NCBI GenBank assembly: GCA_965153355.1
Contig: OZ231126.1
Location: 12,834,001-12,898,000 of the forward strand
DNA length: 64,000 nt
Source of the DNA: Flaccisagitta enflata
Taxonomy: Eukaryota
Direction of reading: 5' to 3'
This document shows positions 8,913-64,000 of the stretch, in pieces (within the stretch, counting starts at the first letter, position 1; the number at the start of each line of letters is the position of its first letter). Position numbers and translations under genes: made by a program. The notes under the pieces are model-generated. The model made no database searches, was not told the DNA's origin, and worked only from the letters and a program-made list of their open reading frames with translations.

Positions 8913-8988
<76 letters not shown>

Positions 8989-9021: not shown

Positions 9022-9085
<64 letters not shown>

Positions 9086-11909: not shown

Positions 11910-12447
<538 letters not shown>

Positions 12448-12896
12448 TACTCCTTTCTCCCCCTCTTCTTTCATTCATTCATTCATAGCTCCCCTTCCTC
12501 TACCATAAGCACGCTCATCTAATAAAGAGCAGACTTCAAGTCTGTGTGCGTCTGCATCCTCTACAAACGCCGTTGACGTCAATTACGTCATTTCGACGAC
12601 CATTACATCACAGTCGTTGAGTCGCGTTGACACGCGTCGACTCGCTGGGGGGGGGGGGGATGATGGCCACTGGGAGGGGGGGGGTTCGATGGGACGTCAA
12701 GACTACATGACGGAATCATCCTAAGTCCATACCCGAAACCTGAAATTGTCATCATCCAAAGTTCAAGACGGTAGCAGTCTCAATTTCGCGACAAATTGTC
12801 ATGTCACGGTCAAACCTAAATCATACCACAAGCACGCATTGTCTGGTCATCCTTGTTCTCCTGCGCAGAAATCATCTCCGTCGTTTCCGTGAACGA

Positions 12897-17269: not shown

Positions 17270-17740
17270 CAGGCAGACGCAGAGAGACACAGAGACACAG
17301 ACAGACACAGACAGACACTTACAGACACAGACAGACAAAGATAGACAAAGACAGAGACAGTCAGAGACAGACACAGACAGACACAGACAGACACAGACAG
17401 ACACAGACAGACACAGACAGACACAGACAGACACAAACAGACACAGACAGACACACACAGACACAGACAGACACAGACAGACGCATACAGACACAGACAG
17501 ACACAGACAGACACAGACAGACACAGACAGACACAGACAGACACAGACAGACACAGACAGACACAGACAGACACAGACAGACACAGACAGACACAGACAG
17601 ACACAGACAGGCACAGACAGACACAGACAGACACACACAGACACACACAGACACAGACAGGCACAGACAGACACAGACAGACACAGACAGACACAGACAG
17701 ACACAGACAGACACAGACAGACACAGACAGACACAGACAG
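17270..17740. repeat. 10-bp (ACACAGACAG)n tandem array
   Basis: Directly visible. Confidence 0.95.
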
Positions 17741-19535: not shown

Positions 19536-20438
19536 AATTGCCCCAGAACAAAGTTTACAGACGGAAAGACGGGGTGATTAAGGGCTGGTTTTTTTTTATG
19601 TCTGGACGGTGAATTTCCATGATTCGGGATTGGATTCATCCAATCGTCGCTTCGAAAGTCTGATGTTAGTCACATGCACACCTCCTCAACTTGTCTATTG
19701 GTGATCAAATCCATTTTCTCCTTGGCTCTTCTACCTGGTAATCTGATTAAAACATCTTCAAGCAAACCCTTCCTCGTTTCTTCTTCATCTTACGCTGTTT
19801 TTGCTATGACTTACGGATGAACTAAATTGTCTGCAAATATCGTATAACCTCTAGCAAATAAAAGGTAACTTACAAAATCATCGGAGAAAGATGCGCATGC
19901 CCTGTTAATGGCATAATTGCAATCGAGCAAAAACTAAAACCGAATTGAATAGGCATTTTGATGCACACCATCTGGAATGGCGGATCGCAAGTACGGAAGC
20001 ACAGTTTGTGAAAAAAAAAACCTTTAAAACATTTTCCCATCACTTAAACAGCGATCAACGACAAAGCAACGATTCAAATCGATTGAAACACTGCGATTAT
20101 TACGCTCATGCCAGAGCCAATCTGATAGGACACATCCAGACCTAAAGTAATTCGCCTGTCTGATGCCGGAAAAAATCCATCATATTTCTTGATTTATGGC
20201 TATTTTGAATTTTCTCTTCATGTGAACAAACGCGTGCGCAAAAGCAGTGACATAAAAGTTTCAGTCATCTCTGCATTTCTTTTCTTCATTGCATACTTAT
20301 ATATTCATTTGTAGTTCTAGTTGAAATCTTGTTCACTATCTTTACTTTATCAACCTCTTTTAACAGCAAACCACATTCATGTGTGAATAGTCAAGTGAAA
20401 CTAGATCGTAATCGGAGGCTATTGATGAGACGCTCGAA

Positions 20439-22121
20439 ATGTCATTGAAAACATCAGCAGACCAGGAAGATGAAGGTATGAAACTCGTTGCTACTACTGA
20501 AGAGAAAATGTACAATTGTGACCGGTGCGATTACAAGACAAACGAGCCAAATGAACTTGAAGCACATGTTAAATCTTCTCATCGGGCGGAGATGGATATA
20601 ACTATGAAATATCAATGCTCACTCTGTGACAAATCGTTCAAGGCCAACGCAACCTTAAAAAGACACTGTGTGAAATGGCACTCTGGCGCCAAATTTGAAT
20701 GCGATGCTTGCGGGAAATTATTGATGACAGAACGAACTCTTCAAAACCACATCGAAAGTCATCACACGGATTTATCAGAAAGACCATTTCATCATTGTGA
20801 AATGTGCGGCTACAAAACGAGGAGGGAAACAAATTTACGTAAACATATATCAAAACGCCATCGAGAACAACCTCGACAATTTAGTTGCGACCAGTGTGAT
20901 TTTCAAACTAAAACAAGGCATGGCCTTACGTTGCATTGGGATCGAATGCATTCAGATGAAAGAAACTTTGAATGTACTATTTGCCAGAAGGCGTTTAAAA
21001 GCAGCAGTGCATTGAGCCTCCATTCTAATTTCCATAAGAAAGAAGCGGGAAAAAGTCACAAATGCGAAATATGCGAGTTTGCCGCCGGAAGCGCAGTGGA
21101 GATTAGGGTTCATAAGAAAACACATCACTCAGAGAAATCCTATGTTTGCGATGTGTGCGGCAAAAAAGAAAAATGCGCGGAGTATTTGCGCTTGCATCGA
21201 AACCGCGTGCATTTTCCCCCAAACAAAAAATTCCAATGCGAGTTATGTCCTTACCAGGCAAAGACAAGTACTCTTCTGAAGACTCACTTGGCAACTCATT
21301 CTGATGATAGACCTTTCAAATGTGATGTTTGTGATTACAGTTGTAAAAGTCGCAGCGGTTTATATGGCCATCATCGAAACATTCATGATGCTTTTCGCGT
21401 AAAATGTGATGTTTGTAACAAAGAATACAAAAACAAGGCTGTTTTGCGCTTGCATAAAGCAGAAAAACATGTCGATCTGACTAACATACCAGACCTCCAG
21501 TGTGAATTTTGCAGCTACCGAACGAAACACAAGAGCAGATTTAAAACCCATAGGAAATCAATGCATTTGGAAATTAAGTGGCACAGTTGCGATATTTGTG
21601 AATTTCGATCTAAAACTAAGGCGGGCTTGGAAAGTCACATAATCTACCACCATACAGAAGAACGCAATTTCAAATGCCCTATCTGCGCAAAATCATTCAA
21701 AACAAAGCGTGATCTTGACGATCACCATTCGAGACACACTGACGAGATCGGCGTGAGCCTGCCGGAACTCAAGTGCGAGTTTTGTGACTTCACCACAAAA
21801 GTTAGGCGGAATCTTCGAACCCATACAAGAAGAGCTCATTTCACAACCAAAAATAAAAGTTGTGGCCAATGCGATTTCAAAGCAAAAACAAATGCCGAAA
21901 TTAGAGATCACTTCGAACGTCACCATTCGGACACACGAAAATTAATGTACGAATGCACAATTTGCTCAAAGAAATTCAAGATGTTATCGTGTCTGGAATC
22001 TCATCAAGTAACCCACGGCATACGTGATGTGGAATTTCGTTGTCCGACTTGTGATTTTGTCACCTACTCAAAATACAATTTAACAAGGCATATGAAAAGG
22101 CGTCATTCAATAAAGAAGTAA
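20439..22121 (+). CDS. Poly-C2H2 zinc-finger protein, 560 aa, 18 fingers, single coding exon
   Basis: Uninterrupted ORF with 18 CxxC-x12-H-x3/4-H motifs and some TGEKP-like linkers (HSEKSY, HSDDRPF, HTEERNF); in-frame stop about 10 codons upstream of the ATG; AATAAA near 22289. Confidence 0.95.
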   Translation: MSLKTSADQEDEGMKLVATTEEKMYNCDRCDYKTNEPNELEAHVKSSHRAEMDITMKYQCSLCDKSFKANATLKRHCVKWHSGAKFECDACGKLLMTERTLQNHIESHHTDLSERPFHHCEMCGYKTRRETNLRKHISKRHREQPRQFSCDQCDFQTKTRHGLTLHWDRMHSDERNFECTICQKAFKSSSALSLHSNFHKKEAGKSHKCEICEFAAGSAVEIRVHKKTHHSEKSYVCDVCGKKEKCAEYLRLHRNRVHFPPNKKFQCELCPYQAKTSTLLKTHLATHSDDRPFKCDVCDYSCKSRSGLYGHHRNIHDAFRVKCDVCNKEYKNKAVLRLHKAEKHVDLTNIPDLQCEFCSYRTKHKSRFKTHRKSMHLEIKWHSCDICEFRSKTKAGLESHIIYHHTEERNFKCPICAKSFKTKRDLDDHHSRHTDEIGVSLPELKCEFCDFTTKVRRNLRTHTRRAHFTTKNKSCGQCDFKAKTNAEIRDHFERHHSDTRKLMYECTICSKKFKMLSCLESHQVTHGIRDVEFRCPTCDFVTYSKYNLTRHMKRRHSIKK

Positions 22122-23565
22122 TGAAAACATCAATCAGATCGTTTCGAAATTGAAAATAATGATGTTCCAGAGGCTCACAAACGATAGTTTGATAAATTCC
22201 CAATCAAGGAATTTGAGACACGGAATTCCACATGACAGGATATACGAAATCCAAGGGACCAACAAATTTCTTCATTGCCAACATATCAAATAAAAGAAAT
22301 TCATTGAAGGGCCTTAATATCTACATCTGTATATCTTTACACGCAAAACTTCGCTACAGTCGTTTTCGTTAGAACGTAATTTTATTTTATGGACAAGTCA
22401 CGTCATTTGTTTAGTTATCATCTTGACGGCTTCCTTTTTCTCTTTGCTTCATTCTTTTTTCTCTTTGAACAGCAGCATCACTCAACCCCAGTGACGCGAG
22501 CGCAAGGAGGCCGTCAGAAAGAGGGCTGTTTCCTTCTTCACCACTTCAACAAAGTACAATTAAACCCCGCAATAATGGATGTCAAGGGACCAGTACATGT
22601 TATCCACTTCTCATCATTGCCATCATAAAAAAAACTGTTGGGGGACATCTTTGAAGTATACTGGCCATATTTCTCCCAACGTGATGCAGTTTCTCCCGAT
22701 GCATTTTTCATTGTAGTAAAATTAGCTATCTCTGGAAATAATCGATCATTTTGGGACCTCTTTTTATTGACGCTTTTCATTTATGAATTGTATTCGCATC
22801 AGACCTATTTATTCAGAAAAAGAAAATGGGATTTATTGGGAGGACCAAAAGGATTGTCATCAAAGATTGTCATCAAACTACTGAAAGAACTGAATCTGAT
22901 TTTGTGTCTGCTTTTTTATCTCGGCTTTTCTCATGTTTTCAGTTTGCATGAGACCCTTTTGACTTGACTTGGCCGAGTTTTATTTTAACAAGGTCTAAAA
23001 TAACAATCATGACGATTTCTCTGTTTTGCTTCTGTGTCTTTTCTTCTGTTTCTGGCAAAACAATTTGGAATGATTATTTCTGATCGATGCTCGTCAGATG
23101 TGACGGGTCGTAGGAAAATGGTTATGGAAATGTTTGAATTTTTTTTCTTCTATACTTTGTAAAGAATATTATTTTTTTTTTTTTTTAAACGATTGTTTTT
23201 GTACTTTGTAAAGAATATCATCTTTTTTCATTGAAAACAATTAGTTACCCCCCTCAATACCGGATCTAAGAGCTATGGAAATCTGTCTATGACAGACAGA
23301 CAGACATAAGTATATAAAGTATTTTGGTATCTTGACATCCGTTATCGCGAGTTTAGCTGTATAGACTTTGAAAGAGTGCTGCTACTCAACCAATTGTATT
23401 GGTCCTATTTCTACCAATAAAGGCGGCTAATCGCCGACCGGAAAAAAGTCGTAAATGGAAGTCTCTTTTTTCAGTGCTTGTTCTTTTGTGTGTGCATTTC
23501 ATGATGTCTGGTTGATTGTCTGTTTTTGTTATTCAATCTGTGCGTTTTTTCCTTTTGATCTTTTT

Positions 23566-23758
<193 letters not shown>

Positions 23759-23786
23759 CCCCTCTCTCTCCTCTCTCTCTCTCCTC

Positions 23787-23817
<31 letters not shown>

Positions 23818-23848
23818 CAAGCAGAATAAAATATCAATGCTAGCGTCA

Positions 23849-28591: not shown

Positions 28592-29351
28592 GTTTTTCAG
28601 TCGCGGACACGCGACTCTATACTTTGCCGTATTGGTCCGTCCGTCCGTCCGTCCATCCGTCCGTCCGTCCATCCGCCCGTCCATTACATTTTTTGTCGCG
28701 TGCTACGCGACTCTACACCCCGCTAGGTCGGTCGGTCGGTCGGTCGGTCGGTCGGTCGGTCGGTCGGTCGGTCGGTCGGTCGGTCGGTCGGTCGGTCGGT
28801 CGGTCGGTCGGTCGGTCGGTCGGTCGGTCGGTCGGTCGGTCGGTCGGTCGGTCGGTCGGTCGGTCGGTCGGTCGGTCGGTCGGTCGGTCGGTCGGTCGGT
28901 CGGTCGGTCGGTCGGTCGGTCGGTCGGTCGGTCGGTCGGTCGGTCGGTCGGTCGGTCGGTCGGTCGGTCGGTCGGTCGGTCGGTCGGTCGGTCGGTCGCC
29001 CTCCTTACTTTTTTCGGCGTTTTTGAGCGTACGGCTCCTGCCCAGATGCCCTAGTGACCTTCTCCTGCACTGCTCCTGCCCACCCGCACGCGACTAAGGT
29101 AGCGGTGTATCCGGCCTTGTTTGATTGCGAGCGGTTTTCGCATTACTGCTCCTGCCGCGACTAGATTGCCGTCTATTCGACCTTGTTTTTAGTTGCGGAC
29201 ACGCAACTCTATAAGAGCCTTTGTCCGTCTGTCGGTCCGTCCGTCGGTCCGTCTGTCGGTCCGTGCACACGAGTTGAAAAGTGTGAAAACGCGCATTTCC
29301 GCCCCTGCCCACCCGTCCGCAACTGGTATGGCCGTGTGTCCGGCCTTGTTT
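28592..29351 (+). mobile_element. Cluster of three HINE-like elements (28689-29122 nested inside another; third at 29186-29351)
   Basis: Repeated TTTT-AGTCGCG/AGTTGCG hairpin starts and GCCGTGTATCCGGCCTTGTTT-type ends; the inner copy has a pure (GGTC)n tract at 28726-28998. Confidence 0.8.
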
Positions 29352-29495
29352 ATGCATTAACTGAGATAGTACATCAAAGCTCTCAGTAAAGGAGACATAT
29401 TTATGTACGGAGGCAGTCAAGGAGAAAAACTAGCAGTGGGATCCCTGTGATCTCACTGGGGAGTTTTCTGCCCTCGACATGGTTGTTAAGTTGTT

Positions 29496-33130: not shown

Positions 33131-33609
33131 TTTTTAGTCGCGTGCTACGCGACTCTATACCCCGCTTTGTCCGTCCGTCCGTCGGTCGGTTGGTCGGTTT
33201 GTCGGTTGGTCGGTTGGTCGGTTGGTCGGTTGGTCGGTTGGTCGGTTGGTCGGTCGGTCGGTCGGTCGGTTGGTCGGTCCCCATTTTACTTTTTTTATGT
33301 TTTTGCGGTCTTTGGCCTCACTGCTCCTTGCCAAATGCTTTAGTAACTCAAATACTGCCCCTGCCCACCCGCACGCAACTGAGGTAGCCGTGTATCCGGC
33401 CTTGTTTTGTTTCTACAGGAGGTGAAAATTTGTCTAATTGCATTTTTTGTGGACACGCAACTCTATAAGAGGCTTTGTCCGTCCGTTGGTCCGTTGGTCC
33501 GTTGGTCCGTCCGTCATGGTGATCGAGTTTGAAAGTGTGAAAACGCGCATTTCCGCTGCCATGCCCACCCGTCCGCAACTGGTATTGGCCGTGTATCCGG
33601 CCTTGTTTT
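33131..33609 (+). mobile_element. Two adjacent HINE-like elements (33131-33408, 33443-33609)
   Basis: Same termini and internal (GGTY)n/(GTCC)n tracts as family A. Confidence 0.8.
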
Positions 33610-33720
33610 CTTTATTTCAAAGCAGGTAGAATCTCAAGTCTGTAAAAGGAGTTAATTTAACGACTTACAAATGACATGTTTTTGTAAAGAACGATAAAAA
33701 AATTGTATCTCTATGTCATT

Positions 33721-33817: not shown

Positions 33818-34959
33818 GAGTCATCACCAGCATGGACCCAACAAGAGCCAAGTGGGAGGAGAAGGTGAGGGAGTAAGAGGAGAATGAGGAGGAGGAGGAG
33901 GAGAATGAAGAGCAAGAGAAGCAAAGGTGGGATTCGATGTTTCTTGGATGTTGTTGAAGAAGTTACGAGAGTCGATCTTGGGGAAAGTTGATCACGTGAT
34001 TTTCTCGGGTGAGTTCAGGGAAAGAAGGGAGCTTCACAGTCAACCACATCTTTTACGCAATTAGGGTTGCCAATGAGCTTCAAAGTAAACCACATCTTTG
34101 ATGCAATTACGGTTGCTAGAGACCCCAAAATTTCAGCATATCCAATGAATGTGATTGGAGGAATCTGATATCCCAAGCTTCATCAAATTCACATGTCCAG
34201 ATGATTTGACAGAGCCATGTCTACTGAAGTGAGTTTAGGGATGGATGGCAGCCCATCAGTTCATCGCATTCACATGAATCTAGGGAGGTAGAAGTAACTC
34301 CTATTTTCACCACCTCCAATTCGTTGGTTGCTAAGAGTGATGTTTCATCGTTGGGATGAGGTAGACTAGATATTCCATTCCTCACTAAATGATCACTGAG
34401 CTTTCCAAAAAAAGGTTGTGATACTCTCATATTGCTAGTATATTTAACTACCATTTAGTGAGAAATTTCCAATCTTTTTCTTGAGAGATTTTGATTTTTT
34501 TTCTCAAATATACTGTGAGAGCAATCAAAAAGATGTTGTCGGTGGTTCACTCCCTCGTAAACACCAAAACTTTTTTAAAGGTGTAAATGCCATTTGACTT
34601 TACTCAAGATTTATTTCTGAGAAAGGTCTTTACATTTAACAGATCATTGGAAGAAAACAAGAGTGGCAATGGCAGGAGGAGGTTGAGATGGGGGGGGGGG
34701 GGTGGGGAAGAGGAAGGAGAAGAACAAGGCCGGATACACGGCTACCCCAGTCGCGTGCGGGTGGGCAGGGGCTGTATTTGTGGTCTTTCAATCATTTGGG
34801 CAGGTGCAGTGAGGCCAAAGACCGCAAAAAAACAAAAAAAGTAAAGCGTGACGGACGAACCAACGGACGGACCAACGGACGGAGGGACAGACCGACGGAC
34901 CGACAAACCGGGTTGTAGAGTCGCGTAGCACGCGACTAAAAAGAAGAAGAAGAAGAAAA

Positions 34960-36010
34960 ATAGTCGCAAAAGCGTAAGATGGTCAGCGGTACCCGTTGCC
35001 CCTATGTGAGTGTATGTGGGTGTGAGGTGGTTAGAGGGGCAGCGGCCCCGAAGGGGCCGATGACCTATGCTGTTTTTATTTGAGCCTCAAGGCTGGAATT
35101 ATGGCCTCAAGGCTGGAATTGGGGCCTTGAGGCTTGGATTTGAGCCTTGAAGCTGGAATTATGACCTCGAGGCTGGAATTATGGCCTCGAGGCTCGGATT
35201 GGGGCTTTGAGGTTTGGATTTGAGCCTTGAGGCTGGGATGTGAGCCTCAAGGCTGGGATTTCAGCCTCGAGGCTGGGATTTCAGCCACAAGGCTGAGATT
35301 TGGGCCTCAAGGTTAGAATTTGAATCTCTGGGGTGGAACATGAGCCTCACAGCTACTACTCGACTCAATAAAAAAGCCGCACTTTTAAATAGCAAATTGT
35401 CATACTAAATTTCAAAAAAACTAATTAAAATTTTAGACCATTAGAAAGCTCTTGAAAAGATCTTTCATTCGGAGCCAATCTGGTATTGCTATCTTTTTTC
35501 GTTTAGAAATGGCATTAGTTTGAGTAAAAATGTTGCCTATTTTAGTTCCGCAATCCTTATGAAAAAAGTGCATTTTACAAAAATAGTGCTTATCTTTGCA
35601 GAGCTCTAGCTCCTAAACCGTTTGAGATACAGATCTGGGATTGGTCTAGAATGAAAGAAAATTCAAAAATCTTTCAAATGACTTTAACAAAAAAAATTTT
35701 GAATAATTTTTTTTTCTTAGACATCAACTCAAAACAGGGTGCGGCTTTTTTTTTGAGTCGAGTAGTAGAATTTGGGCCTCAGGGCTAGATTTTGTGCCTC
35801 TGGGGTAGAATTTGGGCCTCAAGGCTAGAATTTGGGCCTCAAGGTTAGAATTTGGATCTCTGGGGTGGAATATGGGCATCACGACCATAATTTGGGCCGC
35901 AAAGCTGGGGGGGGGTTACGGACGGAGGAGAAGGAGAAGAAGATGAAGGAGAAATTTCTGCATATGTGAAAGCATAGGTCATCGGCCCCTTTGGGGCCGC
36001 TGCCCAAAAA
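34960..36010. mobile_element. HINE-like family D element with central 20-21-bp minisatellite and a nested MITE
   Basis: Asymmetric inverted repeats GGGCAGCGGCCCCGAAGGGGCCGATGACCTATGCT (35037-35071) / AGCATAGGTCATCGGCCCCTTTGGGGCCGCTGCCC (35971-36005); GAGCCTCAAGGCTGGAATTT-type tandem units. Confidence 0.75.
35356..35765. mobile_element. 410-bp MITE with ~27-bp TIRs and TA TSD
   Basis: CTACTCGACTCAATAAAAAAGCCGCAC / GTGCGGCTTTTTTTTTGAGTCGAGTAG; TA at 35354-35355 and 35766-35767; removing it restores the host minisatellite unit GC-TA-GAATTTGGGCCTC. Confidence 0.88.
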
Positions 36011-36017
36011 GGATACG

Positions 36018-36289
36018 AAGAAGGAAAAGAAGAAGAAAGAGAAGAAGAAGAAGAAGAAGAAGAAGAAGAAGAAGAAGAAGAAGAAGAAGAAGAAGAAGAA
36101 GAAGAAGAAGAAGAAGAAGAAGAAGAAGAAGAAGAAGAAGAAGAAGAAGAAGAAGAAGAAGAAGAAGAAGAAGAAGAAGAAGAAAAAGAAGAAGAAGAAG
36201 AAGAAGAAGGAGAAGGAGAAGTAGAAGGAGAAGAGGAAGTAGAGGGAGGAGTAGAAGGAGAAGAGGAGGAGGGAGAAGAAGAGCAGGGA

Positions 36290-36324
<35 letters not shown>

Positions 36325-36508
36325 AGAAGAAGAAGAAGAAGAAGAAGAAGAAGAAGAAGAAGAAGAAGAAGAAGAAGAAGGTGAAAAAGTAGAAGAAGAA
36401 GAAGAAGAGGTAGAAAAAGAAAGAATAGAAGAAGAAGAAGAAGAAAAAGAAGAAGAAGAAGAAGAAGGAGAGGAAGAAGAAGAAGAAGAAGAAGAAGAAG
36501 AAGAAGAA

Positions 36509-36540
<32 letters not shown>

Positions 36541-36600
36541 AGAAGAAGAAAAAGAAGAAGGAGGAGGAGCAGAGGGAGGATGAGGAGGAGGAAGAGGAAG
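36018..36600. repeat. (GAA)n microsatellite
   Basis: Directly visible. Confidence 0.95.
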
Positions 36601-41042: not shown

Positions 41043-41619
41043 AATATATCTATTTTTCTATCTCTCTCTATCTATCTATCTATCTTTCTATCTAATTTGG
41101 AAAAAAGTTTCAAAGATTCTTCGAATTTTTGAGACCTGCAGAGAAAAACGGTTTTCCCCTTGTTTTTTTAGGCGTTTTAGCAAGTTGATGTATTGATGCA
41201 AGTTGATGCATTCTCTATGATTAATAGTTTTTTAGCTATAATTTTTTTTCTTTTTGGTTCTTTTGCGTTTTCCCTGGAAATGAGATATTGAGTTAGTTGA
41301 AGTCCATTCAAACTTTGAATTGTCCCAGCTGTAAACTGTGCATGCTAGCAAAATAAGAAGTGCATTATAGAATTTGAGAAAGTTGCAGGCTTGGCCAAAA
41401 ACTTGTCAAAAACTGGCCAAGATTTATGAAATGCAATATTTGACTGATTTGACAGAGCTTGCCTGGTTATTTGGTGAAACTTTGCTGAATCAAAATATCA
41501 GAAATCAAAGTGAGAGGAAAAACAAAACAAGGCCGGATGCAAGGCAATCCAGTCGCAGACGGTTGGGCAGGAGCAGTAATGTGAAAACCACTTGGAATTG
41601 AAAAATGTGACCTACCTAC

Positions 41620-44600
41620 TAGATAGCAGACTCTGCCCCAAATTCAATCTGACAACCCCAGCCCGATGGTTTTTGCATTCCATATAGTCAAATAGAGGGC
41701 CCAGTGCCAATGAAGGGGTTTTTGAATGGATTTTGCAACCAGCTCTTTTCAAATTTTGATGCGCATAAAGTGGTGGCTGTAGTACAAATCTTGTTTTTAG
41801 GTCATTTCAATCTCAAAATTGGGTCACTTGGCCTGAGAAAAAAGACCCAAAATCCATGAGATTATAAAACTAGAGCCCAAGAGCTAACCAGTGGTGCAAT
41901 CCGCATGTTTCTATCTTCATTTGTTAAGATTTGAGAGCATTTCAAAGACGAGGCTCATGGAGGTAAAATTGCAGCCTCAATTTCAATGGCAATTTTGACA
42001 TTTTTCACAGATTTCAACATATTTTGGCTTTGGATAGACCAATTTGCATGAAATTGGTGACCAAATTAAAGAGTTTTTCCTGCTCTAGCTGATGGTAAAT
42101 GAATTTTTGATCGATATGACCACAAATTTTTTTTATTGACTGTAGAAGCAGGTTTAAAAAAGTCAATTTTTTTGGAAAATTTGTTAACTTTGGACAAAAA
42201 ATTCACCCACCTCTAATTTGAAAAATGACCTAAAATCCATGAGCAAAATAAACTACTGCTCAAGTGCTAACTAGTGGTGCAATCGGCATGTAGCTAAGCT
42301 GTGGCATTTAGATTTTACGGAACTTCAAAGATCAAAGGTTAAGTCAAAATGGCGATTTTTGGTTATTTTGGCCATTTTGGCCTCAAAATCGGGCACCTTT
42401 GGTTTGGAAATCAAAATAAAAATCCATGAGATTATAAAACTAGAGCTCAAGAGCTAACCAGTGGTGCAATCCGCATGTTTCTATCTTCATTTGTTAAGAT
42501 TTGAGAGCATTTCAAAGATGAGGCTCATGGAGGTAAAATTGCAGCCTCAATTTCAGTGGCAATTTTGACATTTTTCACAGATTTCAACATATTTTGGCTT
42601 TGGATAGACCAATTTGCATGAAATTGGTGATCAAATTAAAGAGTTTTTCCTGCTCTAGCTGATGGTAAATGAATTTTTGATCGATATGACTCCAAATTTT
42701 TTTTATTGACTGTAGAAGCAGGTGTAAAAAAGTCAATTTTTTTGGAAAATTTGTCAACTTTGGACAAAAAATTCACCCGCCTCTGATTTGAAAAATGACC
42801 TAAAATCCATGAGCAAAATAAACTACTGCTCAAGTGCTAACTAGTGGTTCAATCGGCATGTAGCTAAGCTGTGGCATTTAGATTTTACGGAACTTCAAAG
42901 ATCAAAGGTTAAGTCAAAATGGCGATTTTTGGTTATTTTGGCCTTTTTGGCCTCAAAATCGGGCACCTTTGGCTTGGAAATCAAAATAAAAATCCATGAG
43001 ATTATAAAACTAGAGCTCAAGAGCTAACCAGTGGTGTAATCCGCATGTTTCTATCTTCATTTGTTAAGATTTGAGAGCATTTCAAAGATGAGGCTCATGG
43101 AGGAAAAATTGCAGCCTCAATTTCAGTGGTTGTTTTTTGATCAATTTAGATGAAATTTGTGAGGAAATGAAAGATTTTTTTCTGCTCTTTAAAATGCCGC
43201 CAAGCGCAATTTGCTAACTTGATTCGTTTAGACGCAGTAGGCTTTCAAATTGAGGGGTTATTTGCGGGTTTTTTATCTTATTTTCTCAAAATAACAAAAA
43301 ATCGCCATTTTGGCTTAACCTTTGATCTTTGAAGTACTGTAAAATCTAAATACCACAGCTTAGCTACTCGCCGATTGCACCACTAGTTAGCACTTGAGCA
43401 CTAGTTTATTTTGCTCATGGATTTTAGGTCATTTTTCAAATTAGAGGCGGTTGAATTTTTTGTCCAAAGTTGACAAATTTTCCAAAAAAATTGATTTTTT
43501 TACACCTGCTTCTACAGTCAATAAAAAGAATTTAGGGTCATGTCGATCAAAAATTCATTTATCATCAGCTAGAGCAGGAAAAACTCTTTAATTTGGTCAC
43601 CAATTTCATGCAAATTGGTCTATCCAAAGCCAAAATATATTGAAATCTGTGAAAAATGTCAAAATTGCCACTGAAATTGAGGCTGCAATTTTTCCTCCAT
43701 GAGCCTCATCTTTGAAATGCTCTCAAATCTTAACAAATGAAGATAGAAACATGCGGATTACACAACTGGTTAGCTCTTGAGCTCTAGTTTTATAATCTCA
43801 TGGATTTTTATTTTGATTTCCAAGCCAAAGGTGCCCGATTTTGAGGCCAAAAAGGCCAAAATAACCAAAAATCGCCATTTTGACTTAACCTTTGATCTTT
43901 GAAGTTCCGTAAAATCTAAATGCCACAGCTTAGCTACATGCCGATTGAACCACTAGTTAGCACTTGAGCAGTAGTTTATTTTGCTCATGGATTTTAGGTC
44001 ATTTTTCAAATAAGAGGCGGGTGAATTTTTTGTCCAAAGTTGACAAATTTTCCAAAAAAATTGACTTTTTTACACCTGCTTCTACAGTCAATAAAAAAAA
44101 TTTGGGGTCATATCGATCAAAAATTCATTTACCATCAGCTAGAGCAGGAAAAACTCTTTAATTTGGTCACCAATTTCATGCAAATTGGTCTATCCAAAGC
44201 CAAAATATGTTGAAATCTGTGAAAAATGTCAAAATTGCCACTGAAATTGAGGCTGCAATTTTACCTCCATAAGCCTCATCTTTGAAATGCTCTCAAATCT
44301 TAACAAATGAAGATAGAAACATGCAGATTGCACCACTGGTTAGCTCTTGAGCTCTAGTTTTATAATCTCATGGATTTTTATTTTGATTTCCAAGCCAAAG
44401 GTGCCCGATTTTGAGGCCAAAATGGCCAAAATAACCAAAAATCGCCATTTTGACTTAACCTTTCATCTTTGAAGTTCCGTAAAATCTAAATGCCACAGCT
44501 TAGCTACATGCCAATTGCACCACTAGTTAGCACTTGAGCAGTAGTTTATTTTGCTCATGGATTTTAGGTCATTTTTCAAATTAGAGGCGGGTGAATTTTT

Positions 44601-45177
44601 TGTCCAAAGTTAACAAATTTTCCAAAAAAATTGACTTTTTTACACCTGCTTCTACAGTCAATAAAAAAAATTTGGGGTCATATCGATCAAAAATTCATTT
44701 ACCATCAGCTAGAGCAGGAAAAACTCTTTAATTTGGTCACCAATTTCATGCAAATTGGTCTATCCAAAGCCAAAATATGTTGAAATCTGTGAAAAATGTC
44801 AAAATTGCCACTGAAATTGAGGCTGCAATTTTACCTCCATGAGCCTCATCTTTGAAATGCTCTCAAATCTTAACAAATGAAGATAGAAACATGCGGATTG
44901 CACCACTGGTTAGCTCTTGGGCTCTAGTTTTATAATCTCATGGATTTTGGGTCTTTTTTCTCAGGCCAAGTGACCCAATTTTGAGATTGAAATGACCTAA
45001 AAACAAGATTTGTACTACAGCCACCACTTTATGCGCATCAAAATTTGAAAAGAGCTGGTTGCAAAATCCATTCAAAAACCCCTTCATTGGCCCTGGGCCC
45101 TCTATTTGACTATATGGAATGCAAAAACCATCGGGATGGGGTTGTCAGATTGAATTTGGGGCAGAGTCTGCTATCTA
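41620..45177. mobile_element. 3,558-bp non-autonomous foldback element with 1,510-bp inverted arms and 8-bp TSD (hAT-like ends)
   Basis: TAGATAGCAGACTCTGCCCC...GGGGCAGAGTCTGCTATCTA termini; CTACCTAC at 41612-41619 and 45178-45185; arms 41620-43129 and 43668-45177; 570-bp tandem units (starts 41851, 42421, 42991; mirrored ends near 43806, 44376, 44946); no long ORF. Confidence 0.93.
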
Positions 45178-45702
45178 CTACCTACCGACCGACCAACCAA
45201 CCTACCAACCGACCGACCAACTTACCGACCAACCGACACGGCAAGTTGTAGTCGCGTGTTTGCGACTAAAAAGGGACTCAACAAAGAGTAGACCCAGGTT
45301 TACGACTTTTTTTCCATTTGCGATATCCGCCTTTATTCGTACAGTAATGTATATAGATAGTATCTTTATACATTACTGTACATATTCATCAATCAAGCTA
45401 CTGAATTAATAATCATGTCTGTCCAGCCTCGTTAATACATTACATCAACACAAAAAAAGCCTTTAGAGCGTTCTGACATATAGTCAAGTGTGGTACCATT
45501 TATTTCAATACTTTTTTTCTCAATCAATCAATATCTTTTTTTAATTCTGTCTTCTTTTTAATACTTTTTTTGTGCTCAAGTTCTCCACGCTGGTTGTTTT
45601 TGTCGGTCTAAAACAACCTTTTTTTTGTTTATCTCCAGTCTGTCTGTCTATCTGTATGCACATTTATCTCTCTCCCTCTCTCTCTATCTTCCTCTCTCTC
45701 TC

Positions 45703-46989: not shown

Positions 46990-47246
46990 TATGTATTTTC
47001 CTTCACATACATCAAAAGCCTCATTCAGCGTGAATTTGCCGATCAATCTCAGTACGAACATTCCTTTGAACAAAACTTGATTCTTTTAAATCAGTCTTAG
47101 TATGAACCTTACAACTCAACTTGATGATGATCTCGATAAAGGCACAAATTAAAAGAAAACCAAAATTCAAATTGAATAGAAATTCACCCCAGCCTTTCTT
47201 ACTTTGGTGCGTGCCGACACAACTGGAAAATGAAAATAGAAACGAG

Positions 47247-47716
<470 letters not shown>

Positions 47717-48123
47717 AGAGGAGAGAGCTCATCAAGCATTCAACATGGTTTCCTTATCATTTTCCTTTAAACTTGGTCACAATTCAAATTTCCTTACAAA
47801 TAGATATGAAATATGGCCACGGTAAATTCTGATTAACCAGGTAATAAAGTTGTTTTTGGAAATTTCCCACAATAAATTCTTACAATGAATGTCTCTGCAC
47901 AGGTGCAAGGTCTCAAATTTCGTGTCATCAAAGCCAACTTTAACCTCACTTGTTTTCTAATCAAATTTGGTTTTACAATAGTCCTGCACCTGGCAAATTC
48001 ATTGAACAGAATAATTCAAAATCAGTACCATAACTTTCTACTTCAGGATATCACTTAGGACGCTGTCACTAATTCAATGCTTATCTGATACATAAGATTG
48101 CAGAGAGAATGAGAGAGAGAGAA

Positions 48124-51207: not shown

Positions 51208-51781
51208 CAGTAGATGTCGTCTAGACTTGGAAATACGGGGGAATTCATTACAGGAAGACAGATGAACCTAAGAGACTGATATTTGGAATATAAACTAATA
51301 AAAGGATGCTTTGTTGCCCATGGGTGTTGGTTGCCATGGAAACACATTTCCATGCATTTACGCTAAAGTATCAATATTTTTAGAAATTTTTTTAGGGAAC
51401 ATTGTTTAAAATAAAATTTGCTACAATTTTCTCACAGTATGTTCTGTAGGAATATCTGTTGTTTGGCGGTTGCTAGGGAGCATCACAGGGCTGTCACACA
51501 TAGTTACGCTCCCTAGCAACGGCTAAACGAGCGATATTCTTACAGAACATACTGTGGGAAAGTTGTAGCAAATTTTAATTTGAACAATGTTCCCTCAAAA
51601 AATTTCTTAAGATATTGATACTTTAGCGTGAATACATGGAAATGTGTTTCCATGGCAACCAACACCCATGGGCAATAAAGCATTCTTTTATTAGACTATA
51701 TTCAAAATATCAATCTCTTAAGTATATTTGTCTTCCTGCAATGAATTCCCCCGTATTTCCAAGTCTAGACGACATCTACTG
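51208..51781. mobile_element. 574-bp palindromic MITE, copy 2
   Basis: Same termini, length and spacer as 361-934; TA at 51206-51207 and 51782-51783; inserted in a minisatellite array. Confidence 0.92.
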
Positions 51782-52163
51782 TACCAAATCAAGTCCCTCA
51801 GACCCCGGATCAGGCTTCTTAGACCCCATATCAGGCCTCTTGTACCGCAAATCAGGCCTGTCAGACCCTATTTCAAGCCCCTGAGACCCCAAATGAGCCT
51901 TCCCAGATATCATATCAGACCTCTCAGATATAACTCGTGCCTTTCAGACCCCAAATTAGGTCTATCAGATCCCAAATTTGGCTTGTCAGACCTCAATTTA
52001 GGCCTCTCACACCCCAAATAAGGCCTCCCAGAACACAAATAAGGTCCCCTGGATTGAGGGCTGGGAGGGCATGTTTTAGGCCTTGATGGCAAATGGGGGG
52101 ACAGAAGGACGAATGGACGGACGGAAGGACGGACATCTGGATATTCCCACCTGTCTTCTACTG

Positions 52164-57042: not shown

Positions 57043-57851
57043 TACCGGAGTAGAAGCAGTGGCAGCGGCAGCGGCAGTGGCAGTGGCAGCCTGAAAATCT
57101 CTTAATTCTGCATAAAAAAGATGGAGGCCGGAAGTCATTTACAACCATTTAAAACCATGTAATAAACTCTCTGACTCTTCTGACCTGCCTCCGTACAAAC
57201 CGATAGATTGAACAGGCGACTGAGGATGTCGTCACAGAATACCAATGAATAACTAAAACTGTATGACAATGTGGAATAAAGCTAATTCATGACAAGCTAA
57301 TTCATGATAAAGCTAATTCATGACAAACGCAAGGAGAAACGAAGGATCGTAAGATACTGAACAAGGCCAAAGAGGCCAATAAGGTGTGACGTGTTGATCG
57401 TCGAACGAATGCGTTACAGACCAACAGACAGACCGACCGACCAACGGACACAGCCAGTTATAGAGGTGCTTTGTCGCACCTAAAAAACGAGGTTTCTGAT
57501 AAGTTTGGGAAAAAACGAAAGCGCAGAAAGGGGGTCTTGGGACTAATCACATCCTGGCCACCCTTTCCAAATCCTTCCCTACCGCAACCCCCGCGTTCGC
57601 CTCCCCCCCCCCCATCCCGCATTTCATTAGTAAGTTATGTATGACGACTGCAGAAGCACAAGGGAGAAAGGCAACTACCGGAGAAAACAAAGAGATCTCG
57701 TAATATCTTTGTAAAAAAGTAGGCAAGAAAAAAGAGAGAGTGGAATATAAAGCCTTCAACATAAAAAGCAGAATGAGAGAAACGATTTTGTAGACTAAAA
57801 CATGCATAATGTATTAAGGAGGCGTTATTAAGAAGAAAGTAAGAAAGAGGT

Positions 57852-58950
<1,099 letters not shown>

Positions 58951-59730
58951 GAGAAACCGATGAAAGATGGACCGATAACGGGGAAGTTGGAGACAAAGCC
59001 CAAAAAGAAGAATCGAGTTATGTGTGGGAATGAGAGTAAAACGCCACAAGTTTTCTCTTTGTGTTTCTTTCTCACCCTTATTCCGTCTGTTAACATCTGT
59101 CTATCTATCAGATTGTCTGTTTGTCTTTCTGTCTGTCTGACGGTCTATCTGTCTTCCAGTTTGTATCCCTGTTTGTCTGTCTGTCTGTGTCCGTCTGTCT
59201 GTGTCTGTCTGTCTGTGTCTGTCTGTCTGTGTCTGTCTGTCTATCTGTCTGTCTGTCTGTCTGTCTGTCTCTGTGTCCGATTTCTACATCTCTATCATTT
59301 AAAGAGCTTTCATGAAAACAAATCATTTCACTACAATATAAACCGAGATGCCACGGCTAAAGAATGACATACTTATTTCAATGCAGACAAAAGTTTTTAT
59401 TCAATTTCAAGTTAATGATTCAAGAAATAAATTCGATGGAAAGTGGGAACACATCATTTTTGCTGTTGCAATCAGGATTAACATTTCCGTGAAGAAACTT
59501 GTTAAGTCACAGTGCAAACGAGTACGCAATTTGACAAGTCAAAACGATTTATATGATATTTTTTATCTTATCTATTCAAAGAATTTTTATGTAGATAAAG
59601 GATTTGTGGTTGGTAATCATCCATTTTTTGCATAGAAAAACGTTTTTCTGTACCATATGCTTAGGAAATGTGAGAAAAAAGCATGCGAAATTAATGGATT
59701 TTCAACAAAAATTGATTCTTGTGCATTGAC

Positions 59731-62166: not shown

Positions 62167-63854
62167 TCAACAACCGGGCGAGATAGGTCCGTCTGATTGC
62201 GATGAAACTCCATCTACTGCGGTTGCTGCAGTTGCTGCCGTGACGACCGGCTTGAACGCCGTAAACTTGGAGGCTCCAAGAATAGCACCGGTTGGCGAGG
62301 ACATGCTGGAGCTTAGGGAAGCGGACGAAGGAGAAGTCATTAACAGCGAACTGGTGTTGCTGCCACTGTTGTTGTTACAGTTATTGTTGTTGCCACTGTT
62401 GTTAGTATTTTCGCCGCGTCGCATTTGCGAAAAAGCTCCCGATGCGCCAAATGGATGCTCCAAGGAAGATAAAGAAGAAGAAGAGGATGAGGAAGCGTTG
62501 TAAGTTGACGAGGGAGTTGGGCGGTGGATGACGCCGTCGTTGGATGAGGATCCCGTCGACGAGCCACTCGGCGTCCGCGGATGATGATGTTGATGAGGAT
62601 GCTGCAGCAGTGGATGTTGCGGTAACTGTTGCTGCTGGTGCTGAAGCTGGAGAGGAGATTGTTGCTGTTGTTGCGATTGTTGCGAAAAGTAGTCTGACGA
62701 AGAGGGTGACATTGTCGACGCCGGCGACAGCAGCGGCGAAGATGTCGAAGTTGTTAAAGAGGATTTTAGCGCCGACGCTGAGGAAGAGACGCCGCCGATG
62801 CCGACGCCGCTCTGCAGCCTCGACAACGCCGCCATTTGAGACGCCGCAGCTGCTGCCGCGGCCGCCGCGCTCATCGCCGCTGCCGGATTCCGCGTCGGCG
62901 ACGGGAAATAGACGCCGGAAGCGCCGCCGGGATGATGAGGATGTTGAGCGGATGAAGCGGCGTCATTTAGCGCCACCGTGGAGCCACTTCCGGCGGCAAA
63001 AAGTCTGGAGGAGGCCGTCGATGTCGGAATCGGCTTCGGAAGTCCGTTTGTCTGCACAGCCGCTAAATGTTGCTGTTGCTGTTGTTGTTGTTGTTGCTGT
63101 TGTTGTTGATGTTGTTGTTGCTGTTGAAGCGCAGCAGCTTGCAGATTGGCTGCGTACTGCGACGCCGCTGCCGATGCCGCTGAAGCCTGCTGTTGATGTT
63201 GATGATGGAACACCCCGTCAACCCAATTTCTCAAGTTCGACATCGGCGACGCGAAACCAGCCGATGCCGATGACGCCGCCGCGGCAGCCGCAGCTGCTGC
63301 GGCAGACTGAAGATGATGTTGTTGCTGCTGCTGCTGCTGTTGCTGTTGATGATGTAGCGATTGCTGATGCATTTGCTGTTGAGGAAACCCGTTGCTGCCG
63401 GGAAAGATGCCGCCGCCAGGAAATCTGCCGGGAGATTCGGGCTGCCGCAAGTAAGTATGTTGCTGTTGATGAAGATGATGAGAGGAGGAGGAAGAGGAGG
63501 AAGGAGGAGGAGGAGTGGAGGCGGTGGCGGTGGCGGCCAGACTCCAAATTCTGGGCTTGGAGGAGGAAGAGGAAGAAGCATCTGCGACAGTCGGTGATGA
63601 CAAAGGAGATCGACTGCGCTCCCGGCTGCCGTGAGAAGCCGGAGAGAGACGACCGGAAAGGGCTTTGGAACTGTGGTGGTCGTTGCTGTGGGGATGGTGG
63701 TTTGAGTTGTGGTGGTTAGGATTGTGGGGATGAGAAGAAGGAGGGGGAGGAGGAAGGGCGCCGTGAGGAGGAAGCGCCGGATGATGAGCGTGACGCAGGA
63801 GAGAGGAACGCCGCAGCGACTCGGCGTCATCGTGATCAGTCACAACGTCGATAT
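62167..63854 (-). CDS. Irx: Iroquois-class (TALE) homeobox gene, final coding exon (partial gene; homeodomain lies beyond the window end)
   Basis: 558-aa ORF containing the IRO box KPRIWSLAATATA (63520-63558), LRNWVDGVFH (63205-63234) and FTAFKPV (62245-62265); polyQ/A/S/H tracts; minus-strand acceptor (pyrimidine tract + cctattcAG, AG at 63856-63855), phase 1; stop at 62167-62169. Confidence 0.9.
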
Positions 63855-64000
63855 CTGAATAGGTGGTGGAGGAAGAGGAGGAAGAGGAGGAAGAGGAAGA
63901 GGAGTAAGTGGAGAAAGAAGAGGATGAAGACGAAGGGGATAAGGTGGAGGAAAGGAGGAGAGAGGAAGAAGGAGAATGGTTGTTAAAAAAAAACAGTACA

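What the first reader, a model, noticed from the sequence alone, without database searches (positions are those of the whole stretch)
41620..45177. 3.56-kb non-coding foldback transposon whose 1.5-kb arms are satellite-like arrays
Seen: matched termini (TAGATAGCAG...CTGCTATCTA), an exact 8-bp TSD (CTACCTAC), ~230 bp of unique terminal sequence, then 570-bp tandem units in opposite orientation on each arm (about 2.25 left, 2.9 right) around only ~160 bp of unique centre (43130-43290). Established: an 8-bp TSD with TAG/CAG ends is typical of hAT elements, which normally have short TIRs; kilobase modular TIRs are known from Foldback/Galileo-type elements. Inference: a young (arms nearly identical, TSD intact) hAT-mobilised foldback family that moves a satellite array, could form a large hairpin/cruciform or dsRNA, and lies ~17 kb downstream of an Irx gene.
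Basis: partly seen in the sequence, partly recalled or inferred. Interest (0 to 1): 0.75.

Follow-up and report, generated by a model that had tools for sequence, protein, structure and literature searches.

The report
Foldback transposon nested in another repeat
This is a real 3.56-kb non-coding mobile element whose two 1.5-kb mirror-image arms carry 570-bp tandem repeats, a design already known from Drosophila foldback elements, and its hAT assignment and young age are not established.

Summary
The structure is real. Arms 41620-43129 and 43668-45177 are 1,510 nt each, with 16 mismatches and no indels (98.9%). Each arm has a 176-nt terminal domain followed by 570-bp tandem units: 2.34 on the left and 3.01 on the right. 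A 157-nt middle separates them. No ORF exceeds 68 aa, and Pfam, Rfam and tRNA scans found nothing inside.

The new result is that the two flanks are the halves of one copy of a short dispersed Helentron-type (HINE-like) repeat that carries a tetranucleotide microsatellite. This shows a discrete insertion and argues against an assembly artefact. It also weakens the "8-bp TSD". CTACCTAC lies inside that microsatellite, where 8-nt-left equals 8-nt-right at 352 of 720 positions across 10 copies.

The architecture matches known foldback-like elements such as Tetris and Galileo. The hAT assignment is plausible: the duplicated 8-mer fits the hAT target consensus and the end is TAG. It is unproven, because TAGAT fails YARNG at the fifth base and no transposase is present. 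Mutator cannot be excluded. Copy number, satellite status, age and the Irx link could not be tested. I rate it a new member of a known kind, of modest interest.

The parts
41620..45177 (.). Whole foldback-like element (3,558 bp), non-coding
   Evidence: Self-blast and inverted-repeat search. The longest stop-to-stop ORF fully inside is 68 aa. The 6 ORFs sent to Pfam gave no hit at or near a gathering score; the best was E 0.032. There is no Rfam match inside and no tRNA.
41612..41619 (+). Left copy of flanking 8-mer CTACCTAC (candidate target-site duplication)
   Evidence: It lies at the first two units of the host repeat's tetranucleotide microsatellite, so the duplication length is ambiguous.
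45178..45185 (+). Right copy of flanking 8-mer CTACCTAC
   Evidence: It is followed directly by the rest of the (NNAC)n microsatellite, 45186-45237 (D6, 3).
41620..41795 (+). Left terminal (flanking) domain, 176 nt. It starts with TAGATAGCAG and holds 3 copies of GGWTTTTGMA at 41668, 41717 and 41728.
   Evidence: It has no similarity to the 570-bp unit. The terminal 20-mer is found only at the two ends. All 6 window matches to the 10-mer lie in the two terminal domains, against 1.7 expected in the whole window; the motif was defined post hoc.
45002..45177 (-). Right terminal (flanking) domain, the mirror image of the left one
   Evidence: There are 2 mismatches to the left domain (41661/45136 and 41705/45092).
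41796..43129 (+). Left tandem array: L1 41796-42365, L2 42366-42935, partial L3 42936-43129 (194 nt)
   Evidence: the repeat finder D3 and unit alignment: L1/L2 are 94.4% identical. Each unit is made of 383-nt and 187-nt sub-units that share a 60-nt core at 82% (E 1e-13; D4/D5/D7, 35).
43130..43286 (.). Middle domain, 157 nt. The first ~60 nt are a diverged, internally deleted continuation of unit L3; the rest is unique.
43287..45001 (-). Right tandem array, 3.0 units in inverted orientation: R3 43292-43861, R2 43862-44431, R1 44432-45001. The inner 381 nt (43287-43667) have no partner in the left arm.
   Evidence: the repeat finder D2 and unit alignment. Mirror pairs: L1/R1 98.8%, L2/R2 98.9%. 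Neighbours: R1/R2 95.1%, R2/R3 96.0%.
41524..41619 (+). 5' half of the interrupted host repeat (HINE-like head with sub-terminal inverted-repeat word AGTCGCAGAC)
   Evidence: blastn to at least 10 other copies in the window and alignment of the rejoined flanks with 8 copies.
45178..45272 (+). 3' half of the host repeat: tetranucleotide microsatellite plus a tail with a short palindrome, ending ...GCGACTAAAAA

Best explanation
This is one copy of a non-autonomous, foldback-type class II (terminal-inverted-repeat) transposon. Each arm has a 176-nt terminal domain that presumably carries the transposase recognition sites, including the terminal 20-mer and three sub-terminal GGWTTTTGMA words. Behind it lies an outer domain of 570-bp tandem units. 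A short non-coding middle joins the arms. The copy was inserted by a transposase supplied in trans. That step is inferred, and the enzyme was not found. The target was the first units of the tetranucleotide microsatellite of a pre-existing Helentron-type (HINE-like) short repeat, most simply with an 8-bp duplication of CTACCTAC. The unit number differs between the arms (2.34 versus 3.01). Such differences arise by unequal exchange or slippage within arms. The arms were last identical, by inverted duplication or arm-to-arm conversion, after the units had already diverged. The most likely mobilising superfamily is hAT (about 0.45), then Mutator (about 0.2), then others.
For: SHOWN:
(1) The inverted arms are 1,510 nt with 16 mismatches and 0 indels.
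(2) Units are mirrored in order. L1/R1 are 98.8% and L2/R2 98.9% identical, while neighbouring units are 94.4-96.0%.
(3) Of the 14 arm mismatches inside units, 13 are singletons against all other unit copies: 8 on the left arm and 5 on the right. These are independent point changes after the arms were last identical.
(4) Both ends stop exactly at the same 20-nt word, which is found nowhere else in the window.
(5) With the 3,558 bp and one CTACCTAC removed, the flanks align end to end with other copies of a dispersed repeat (head, microsatellite, palindromic tail). That amounts to a paralogous empty site.
(6) The element has no coding capacity.
(7) The layout of flanking domain, tandem-repeat outer domain and non-coding middle is that described for Tetris (TIRs up to 1,735 bp, 220-bp repeats, TSD 8-10 bp; PMC4079207 passages). 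Galileo is also similar, with ~210-bp tandem repeats in the TIR, different numbers in the two TIRs, and the longest TIRs in non-autonomous copies (PMC3573991 passages).

FOR hAT:
- CTACCTAC fits nTnnnnAn (PMC2803484) and NTRNNYAN (PMC3014272).
- Only one of the four phases of a CTAC run fits, and it is the one observed.
- The end begins with TAG, like hobo-type TIRs listed in PMC3014272.
Against: - There is only one copy in 64 kb, so mobility as a family is not shown.
- The duplication lies in a microsatellite, where an 8/8 match is common without any duplication (352 of 720 positions). The TSD length, and so the superfamily, is not fixed.
- TAGAT fails the fifth position of YARNG.
- hAT TIRs listed in PMC3014272 are 11-16 bp, not 1.5 kb.
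- No transposase domain was found. This covers 65 of the 89 higher-complexity ORFs of 80 aa or more that I sent to Pfam, plus the zinc-finger and Irx-like ORFs scanned separately. 22 of the 89 were not scanned.
- The authors of Tetris assign foldbacks with 8-10-bp TSDs to Mutator.
Confidence: 0.75

Rival explanations
1. The design is the same, but the element is mobilised by a Mutator-like (MULE) transposase, as proposed for Tetris and most foldback elements, and not by hAT.
For: Tetris has the same modular layout with TSDs of 8-10 bp. [quoted passage not shown] Long TIRs are usual in MULEs (PMC3310237, abstract seen in the listing). An 8-bp match is within that range.
Against: The 8-mer fits the hAT target consensus, and the end starts with TAG. 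A 9- or 10-bp duplication is excluded here, because the flanks match for exactly 8 nt. No MULE transposase domain was found in the window.
Confidence: 0.2
2. It is not a transposon. On this reading a palindromic DNA segment was created or captured at a double-strand break in the fragile microsatellite, by fold-back repair or end-joining of extrachromosomal palindromic DNA. The flanking CTACCTAC would simply be microsatellite, with no duplication.
For: The insertion lies in a tetranucleotide microsatellite, where 8/8 flank identity needs no duplication. Only one copy is seen. Arm asymmetry and a short spacer are also seen in repair-generated palindromes; this comes from my own knowledge and was not checked.
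Against: Both ends terminate at exactly the same 20-nt word. The arms contain sequence foreign to the locus rather than inverted copies of the flanks. Sub-terminal short repeats are confined to the terminal domains. The host microsatellite otherwise shows CTAC only singly, so a pre-existing run of four is not the simplest reading.
Confidence: 0.1
3. The 570-bp array is the internal tandem-repeat cargo of the Helentron-type host repeat itself, as in Cg_HINE and pearl elements, and was later rearranged into a palindrome.
For: HINEs often carry short satellite-like arrays between their left and right modules (PMC7492417 passages). The flanks here have the HINE features: a sub-terminal inverted repeat, a microsatellite and a 3' palindrome.
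Against: In Cg_HINEs the array follows the microsatellite and a variable spacer, and all repeats have one orientation. Here the block lies 8 nt into the microsatellite, ahead of the rest of it, and has perfect inverted ends. None of the other copies of the host repeat examined in the window carries any part of it.
Confidence: 0.05
4. It is an assembly or read artefact, that is, a fold-back chimera.
For: Inverted duplications are a known long-read artefact (my own knowledge). Unit counts in near-identical tandem arrays can be mis-assembled.
Against: The block is internal, with both flanks continuing into the two halves of one repeat copy. The arms differ at 16 sites, 13 of 14 in-unit differences being singletons spread over both arms. 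The arms are unequal by 0.66 unit around a 157-nt middle. The window contains no N.
Confidence: 0.04

Closest known systems
Tetris (Drosophila virilis foldback transposon; PMC4079207, passages read)
   Same: It is non-coding. It has long TIRs built of an outer flanking domain plus an array of tandem repeats, and a short variable middle domain. TSDs start at 8 bp. It is presumed to be mobilised in trans. The tandem repeats can seed satellite-like arrays.
   Different: Tetris units are ~220 bp against 570 bp here, and here the unit is itself 383+187 nt with a shared core. I found no sequence relationship by any route available. Tetris TSDs are 8-10 bp and its authors assign it to Mutator, whereas here the flank match is exactly 8 nt and fits the hAT target pattern. 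Whether the 570-bp unit forms arrays elsewhere is unknown.
Galileo, non-autonomous '2T' copies (P superfamily, Drosophila; PMC3573991, passages read)
   Same: It has kilobase TIRs with internal ~210-bp tandem repeats whose number differs between the two TIRs of one copy. The longest TIRs are in copies without a transposase.
   Different: Galileo makes 7-bp duplications. Here the 7 nt next to the two ends are not identical, while the 8 nt are. No THAP or P transposase was seen.
hAT non-autonomous elements (e.g. the hobo-N families of Anolis; PMC3014272, passages read)
   Same: There is a candidate 8-bp duplication that fits NTRNNYAN, and the end begins with TAG. The element is non-coding.
   Different: The hAT TIRs listed there are 11-16 bp, while here the inverted repeat is 1,510 bp. 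The terminal pentamer TAGAT departs from YARNG at position 5.
Cg_HINE / pearl-type Helentron-associated elements (PMC7492417, passages read)
   Same: These relate to the HOST repeat, not the foldback. They share the sub-terminal inverted repeat, a tetranucleotide microsatellite of the GTCY/GTCK type (seen here on the other strand), a 3' palindrome and head-to-tail copies. They are vehicles of satellite-like arrays.
   Different: The 3.56-kb block is not at the HINE array position, is inverted-repeat bounded, and is absent from the other copies examined.
Sea-urchin TU and Drosophila FB elements (classical foldbacks)
   Same: They share the modular long inverted arms with tandem repeats.
   Different: I saw these only as citations in PMC4079207. 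Their TSD lengths and repeat sizes are recalled and were not checked here.

Membership tests
Foldback-like elements (structural class: FB, Tetris, Galileo-2T) | Long terminal inverted repeats that make up most of the element | tested here: met
   The two 1,510-nt arms account for 85% of 3,558 bp and are 98.94% identical.
Foldback-like elements (structural class: FB, Tetris, Galileo-2T) | Modular arms: a terminal flanking domain followed by tandem direct repeats, with a non-coding middle domain | tested here: met
   176-nt flanking domain, 570-bp units (2.34 and 3.01) and a 157-nt middle. No ORF exceeds 68 aa.
Foldback-like elements (structural class: FB, Tetris, Galileo-2T) | Target-site duplication flanking the copy | tested here: inconclusive
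   An exact 8-nt direct repeat is present, but it lies inside a tetranucleotide microsatellite, where such matches occur at 352 of 720 positions.
Foldback-like elements (structural class: FB, Tetris, Galileo-2T) | Dispersed multiple copies with the same ends | not testable with these tools
   There are no further copies in the window. The only DNA collections open to me were bacterial/archaeal genomes and plasmids, and both gave 0 hits.
hAT superfamily (non-autonomous member) | 8-bp target-site duplication | tested here: inconclusive
   The flanks match for exactly 8 nt, but the microsatellite context allows 8, 4 or 0 bp.
hAT superfamily (non-autonomous member) | Terminal motif YARNG (PMC3014272) | tested here: not met
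   Both ends read TAGAT. Positions 1-4 fit and position 5 is T, not G.
hAT superfamily (non-autonomous member) | Target consensus nTnnnnAn / NTRNNYAN | tested here: met
   CTACCTAC fits both. By my own arithmetic, the chance fit to NTRNNYAN is 1/64 in random sequence and 1 in 4 phases within a CTAC run.
hAT superfamily (non-autonomous member) | Autonomous partner with the same ends that encodes a hAT transposase | not testable with these tools
   No transposase domain was found in the window ORFs scanned. The source genome is not available.
Mutator-like foldbacks (Tetris type) | TSD of 8-10 bp (PMC4079207) with long TIRs | tested here: inconclusive
   Long TIRs are met. A duplication of 8 nt is at the lower edge of the range, and 9 or 10 nt is excluded at this copy. 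The length is itself ambiguous.
P superfamily / Galileo | 7-bp TSD (PMC3573991) | tested here: not met
   The 7 nt abutting the two ends are TACCTAC and CTACCTA, which are not identical.
Merlin superfamily | TIRs with a conserved terminal 5'-GG-3' and an 8-9-bp TSD (PMC8101967) | tested here: not met
   The ends begin with TA. The TSD criterion is inconclusive.
HINE (Helentron-associated) internal tandem-repeat array | The array lies after the microsatellite, all repeats have one orientation, and there are no terminal inverted repeats of its own (PMC7492417) | tested here: not met
   The block lies 8 nt into the microsatellite, ahead of the rest of it. Its arms are inverted, and it is absent from the other copies examined.
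HINE (for the interrupted host repeat only) | 5' sub-terminal inverted repeat complementary to a 3' one, a microsatellite in the left module, and a 3' palindrome | tested here: met
   In copy 6015, AGTCGCGGAC is complementary to GTCCGCGACT. There is a tetranucleotide array, and the tail reads AGTCGCG-TGTC-CGCGACT followed by AAAAA. A head-to-tail junction lies near 29150-29215. T-rich insertion sites and the absence of a TSD were not examined.

The most novel reading that the evidence does not exclude
The element may be the first described hAT-superfamily foldback family. hAT elements normally have TIRs of 11-16 bp. This one would have stretched its arms to 1.5 kb by amplifying a composite 570-bp (383+187) unit, so that a hAT transposase spreads a proto-satellite through an invertebrate genome. 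Each copy would be a ready-made 1.5-kb hairpin, and so a possible source of hairpin-derived small RNAs, in this case in the gene desert beside a developmental gene. My three full-text searches for hAT together with foldback, long TIRs or internal tandem repeats returned Galileo, Tetris, MULE and Merlin papers but no hAT example. Repbase and Dfam could not be consulted.
Probability: 0.25. Interest if true: 0.45.

Novelty: new member of a known kind. Interest (0 to 1): 0.27.

Why it matters
If the family has many copies, it would be another documented route by which a DNA transposon carries and seeds tandem repeats. Its long near-perfect palindromes are potential sites of ectopic recombination, replication stalling and hairpin RNA production. 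The nesting result has practical value. It gives a clean paralogous empty site that authenticates the insertion. It also shows why target-site duplications read from a single copy inside a microsatellite should not be used to assign a superfamily. As a single copy with a design already known from Tetris, Galileo and FB, it would not surprise a specialist.

Tried and rejected
- Other copies in the window: blastn of the whole element and of its terminal 20-mer and 12-mer with mismatches found none.
- Copies elsewhere: two exact-word scans of the bacterial/archaeal genome collection, with the terminal 20-mer and a 27-mer from the unit, gave 0 hits. blastn against plasmids gave no match. These collections hold no eukaryotic genomes, so the results say only that this is not bacterial or vector contamination.
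- Coding capacity: the 6 ORFs sent to Pfam (5 inside the element, 1 reaching 8 nt into the left flank) gave nothing near a gathering score.
- RNA genes: Rfam found none inside the element, none in the window at gathering thresholds, and there are no tRNAs. A SINE or tRNA origin of the unit is therefore not supported.
- Transposase nearby: I sent 65 of the 89 higher-complexity ORFs of 80 aa or more to Pfam. The only hits were 'PT repeat', which is the translated microsatellite. The 24 I dropped were alternative frames over the zinc-finger and Irx-like ORFs, or further repeat-derived frames. The zinc-finger and Irx-like ORFs themselves were scanned, so 22 went unscanned.
- Organism: the intronless C2H2 zinc-finger ORF (20412-22121) has a best relative at only 31% identity. 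The Irx-like ORF gave no hit and no Pfam family. The source taxon was not determined; I can only say it is a microsatellite-rich animal genome.
I folded the inner 998 nt with the fold tool instead.
- Considered and rejected: P/Galileo membership (the 7-nt flanks differ), Merlin (the ends are not GG), and HINE cargo (wrong position and orientation).
Full report
OBSERVATION

The two ends carry the same 20-nt word in inverted orientation. That word occurs nowhere else in the 64-kb window, even with 3 mismatches allowed, against 0 expected from 100 shuffles. blastn and the inverted-repeat search give arms of 1,510 nt, at 41620-43129 and 43668-45177. An ungapped comparison shows 16 mismatches (9 transitions, 7 transversions) and no indel, which is 98.94% identity. 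The window contains no N.

ANATOMY

The parts, from left to right, are as follows.
- A 176-nt terminal domain (41620-41795) with no similarity to the repeat unit.
- Units L1 (41796-42365) and L2 (42366-42935), and the first 194 nt of L3 (42936-43129).
- A 157-nt middle (43130-43286).
- Three full units in the opposite orientation: R3 (43292-43861), R2 (43862-44431) and R1 (44432-45001).
- The mirror-image terminal domain (45002-45177).

The left array therefore holds 2.34 units and the right array 3.01. The inner 381 nt of the right array have no partner on the left.

The middle is not wholly unique. Its nt 10-59 match unit positions 242-291 at 82% (E 7e-11) after a 38-nt gap, so it is a decayed continuation of L3. 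The first ~55 nt of L1 and R1 are much more diverged from the later units.

Each 570-bp unit is itself composite. It consists of a 383-nt part and a 187-nt part that share a 60-nt core at 82% identity (E 1e-13; D4/D5/D7, 35). TRF did not report the array because the longest period it takes here is 500.

HISTORY READ FROM THE COPIES

Mirror pairs are much closer than neighbours. L1/R1 are 98.8% and L2/R2 98.9% identical. L1/L2 are 94.4%, R1/R2 95.1% and R2/R3 96.0%. The tandem array had therefore already diversified when the two arms were last identical, whether by inverted duplication or by arm-to-arm conversion.

Of the 14 arm differences that fall within units, 13 are singletons against all other unit copies. 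Eight lie on the left arm and five on the right. That is the pattern of independent point mutation on both arms. It is not the pattern of a collapsed or chimeric assembly.

CODING AND RNA

No stop-to-stop ORF fully inside the element exceeds 68 aa. The six ORFs I sent to Pfam gave nothing near a gathering score, the best being E 0.032. Rfam finds nothing inside the element, and the window has no tRNA. The inner 998 nt fold as single-stranded DNA into one long stem at -348.9 kcal/mol. Twenty shuffles averaged -109.4 +/- 5.2, giving z = -46.

THE SURROUNDINGS CHANGE THE PICTURE

The ~100 nt to the left (41524-41619) and the ~95 nt to the right (45178-45272) are the two halves of one copy of a short dispersed repeat. 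This repeat has at least ten other copies in the window, near 4488, 6015, 6951, 7466, 9909, 28670-29215, 29351, 33412, 33613 and 34709.

These copies share the following parts.
- A head with a 10-nt word (AGTCGCGGAC) that is the reverse complement of a word in the tail.
- A tetranucleotide microsatellite of (NNAC)n / (GACG)n type.
- A tail with a 7+7-nt palindrome, ending in AAAAA.
- At one place, copies that follow each other head to tail.

This is the architecture given for Helentron-associated interspersed elements: a 5' sub-terminal inverted repeat, a microsatellite in the left module, and a 3' sub-terminal repeat with a palindrome (PMC7492417, passages read).

When the 3,558 bp and one CTACCTAC are removed, the rejoined flanks align from head to tail with the other copies. 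This is a paralogous empty site. It shows that the block is a discrete insertion with exact ends. It argues strongly against a read or assembly fold-back artefact, and against a local inverted duplication of flanking DNA.

THE SAME RESULT UNDERMINES THE '8-BP TSD'

CTACCTAC is the first two units of the host microsatellite. The right flank continues CTAC CTAC CGAC CGAC CAAC CAAC and so on. I counted, across the microsatellites of ten copies of this repeat, the positions where the 8 nt on the left equal the 8 nt on the right. The result is 352 of 720. Without the one long pure array it is 94 of 429, and five of the ten arrays have none.

The match could therefore reflect an 8-bp duplication of a (CTAC)2 target, a 4-bp duplication of (CTAC)3, or no duplication of (CTAC)4. 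The 8-bp reading is the simplest, because CTAC otherwise occurs only singly in this array and the neighbouring units come in pairs. It is not proof.

WHICH SUPERFAMILY

The evidence by superfamily is as follows.
- hAT. Its features, as stated in PMC3014272 (passages), are 8-bp TSDs and YARNG ends, with listed TIRs of 11-16 bp. Hermes integrates at nTnnnnAn (PMC2803484), and hobo-type families in PMC3014272 show NTRNNYAN. Here the 8-mer fits both consensuses, in the only one of four microsatellite phases that does. The end starts with TAG. However, TAGAT misses the fifth position of YARNG, and the inverted repeat is a hundred times longer than usual.
- Galileo (P superfamily). It makes 7-bp duplications (PMC3573991). 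The 7 nt next to the two ends differ here.
- Merlin. Its ends are GG (PMC8101967). Here they are TA.
- Mutator. Tetris, the closest structural analogue, has TSDs of 8-10 bp, and its authors assigned it to Mutator (PMC4079207). This cannot be excluded from one copy.

No transposase domain was found in the window. The scan covered 65 of the 89 higher-complexity ORFs of 80 aa or more, and the only hits were the translated microsatellite. The zinc-finger and Irx-like ORFs were scanned separately, which leaves 22 of the 89 unscanned. I put hAT at about 0.45, Mutator at about 0.2 and others lower.

A possible recognition element is the word GGWTTTTGMA. All six matches in the window lie in the two terminal domains, three in each, against 1.7 expected window-wide. 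The motif was defined from these copies, so this is only a lead.

HOW IT MOST LIKELY WORKS

Shown:
- The element is non-coding and bounded by inverted repeats.
- It is inserted exactly into another repeat.
- Its arms consist of a terminal domain plus tandem units.

Inferred:
- A transposase supplied in trans binds the terminal domain and cuts at the 20-nt ends.
- The unit number changes by unequal exchange or slippage within arms, as documented for Galileo, where the two TIRs of one copy can hold different numbers of repeats.
- The arms are kept alike by conversion.

Dating the insertion from arm identity is not valid. The 1.06% difference dates the last homogenisation of the arms and is at most an upper bound on the insertion age.

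COMPARISON WITH WHAT IS KNOWN

The layout of flanking domain, tandem-repeat outer domain and non-coding middle is the definition of foldback-like elements used for Tetris (TIRs up to 1,735 bp, 220-bp repeats). It also applies to Galileo copies that lack a transposase. [quoted passage not shown] This is therefore a new member of a known kind.

My full-text searches that combined hAT with foldback, long TIRs or internal tandem repeats returned no hAT example. Repbase and Dfam were out of reach, and only open-access text was searched. The sea-urchin TU element was seen only as a citation, and what I remember of it was not checked.

WHAT COULD NOT BE TESTED

- Copy number.
- TSDs of other copies.
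- The autonomous partner.
- Satellite arrays of the unit elsewhere.
- Small RNAs.
- Read support.

The available DNA collections hold bacteria, archaea and plasmids, and all three queries were empty.

The source organism was not identified. The best relative of the zinc-finger ORF is 31% identical. The 'Irx' label rests only on a KPRIWSLA motif that I recall as Iro-box-like, in the ORF at 62167-63999(-). That ORF gave no Pfam family and no homologue. Its stop lies 16,990 bp from the element's right end.

VERDICT

I rate it a new member of a known kind, with interest 0.27.

Noticed in passing
window 4488-4622, 6015-6184, 6951-7037, 7466-7649, 9909-10135, 28670-29215(-), 29205-29360(-), 33150-33418(-), 33445-33622(-), 34709-34900, plus the interrupted copy 41524-41619/45178-45272: There is a dense family of short HINE-like (Helentron-associated) repeats, with at least 11 copies in 64 kb. 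Each carries a tetranucleotide (GACC/GACG/NNAC)n microsatellite of very variable length, from about 30 nt to about 300 nt at 28700-29005. These repeats appear to be a major source of the window's tetranucleotide microsatellites.
   Followed up: partly
window ~29100-29215 (- strand): There is a head-to-tail junction of two HINE-like copies: the tail ...CTAAAAA is followed directly by the head CAAGG.... This is as expected for rolling-circle elements inserted in tandem.
   Followed up: no
window 20412-22121 (+): There is an uninterrupted 569-codon ORF encoding a multi-C2H2 zinc-finger protein (Pfam zf-C2H2 E 8e-38, zf-H2C2_2 E 4e-45). Its best database relative is only 31% identical. It appears to be intronless.
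   Followed up: partly
window 62167-63999 (-), open at the window end: There is a long Ser/Gln/Ala/His-rich ORF with a KPRIWSLA motif, which I recall as Iro-box-like.
   Followed up: partly
window 45339-45381: A 21+21-nt near-perfect palindrome (95% complementary, 1-nt loop) lies 160 bp right of the element. Rfam gives only sub-threshold miRNA-like scores for it (mir-506, E 0.32, 22 bits against a gathering score of 84.5).
   Followed up: no
whole window, e.g. 1200-2800, 6400-6850, 8750-9150, 12100-12500, 17200-17800, 23550-23830, 35980-36600, 47200-47720, 57800-59000: The window has an exceptional density of long di-, tri- and tetranucleotide microsatellites: (AAC)n/(CAA)n, (GA)n, (GT)n, (TTTC/TTCC)n-like and (GAA/GAG)n. 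They fill much of the intergenic space.
   Followed up: no
window 875-940 and 51722-51790: The same ~20-codon translated stretch (VYLSSCNEFPRISKSRRHLLY) appears in ORFs at two distant places. This points to another dispersed repeat family.
   Followed up: no
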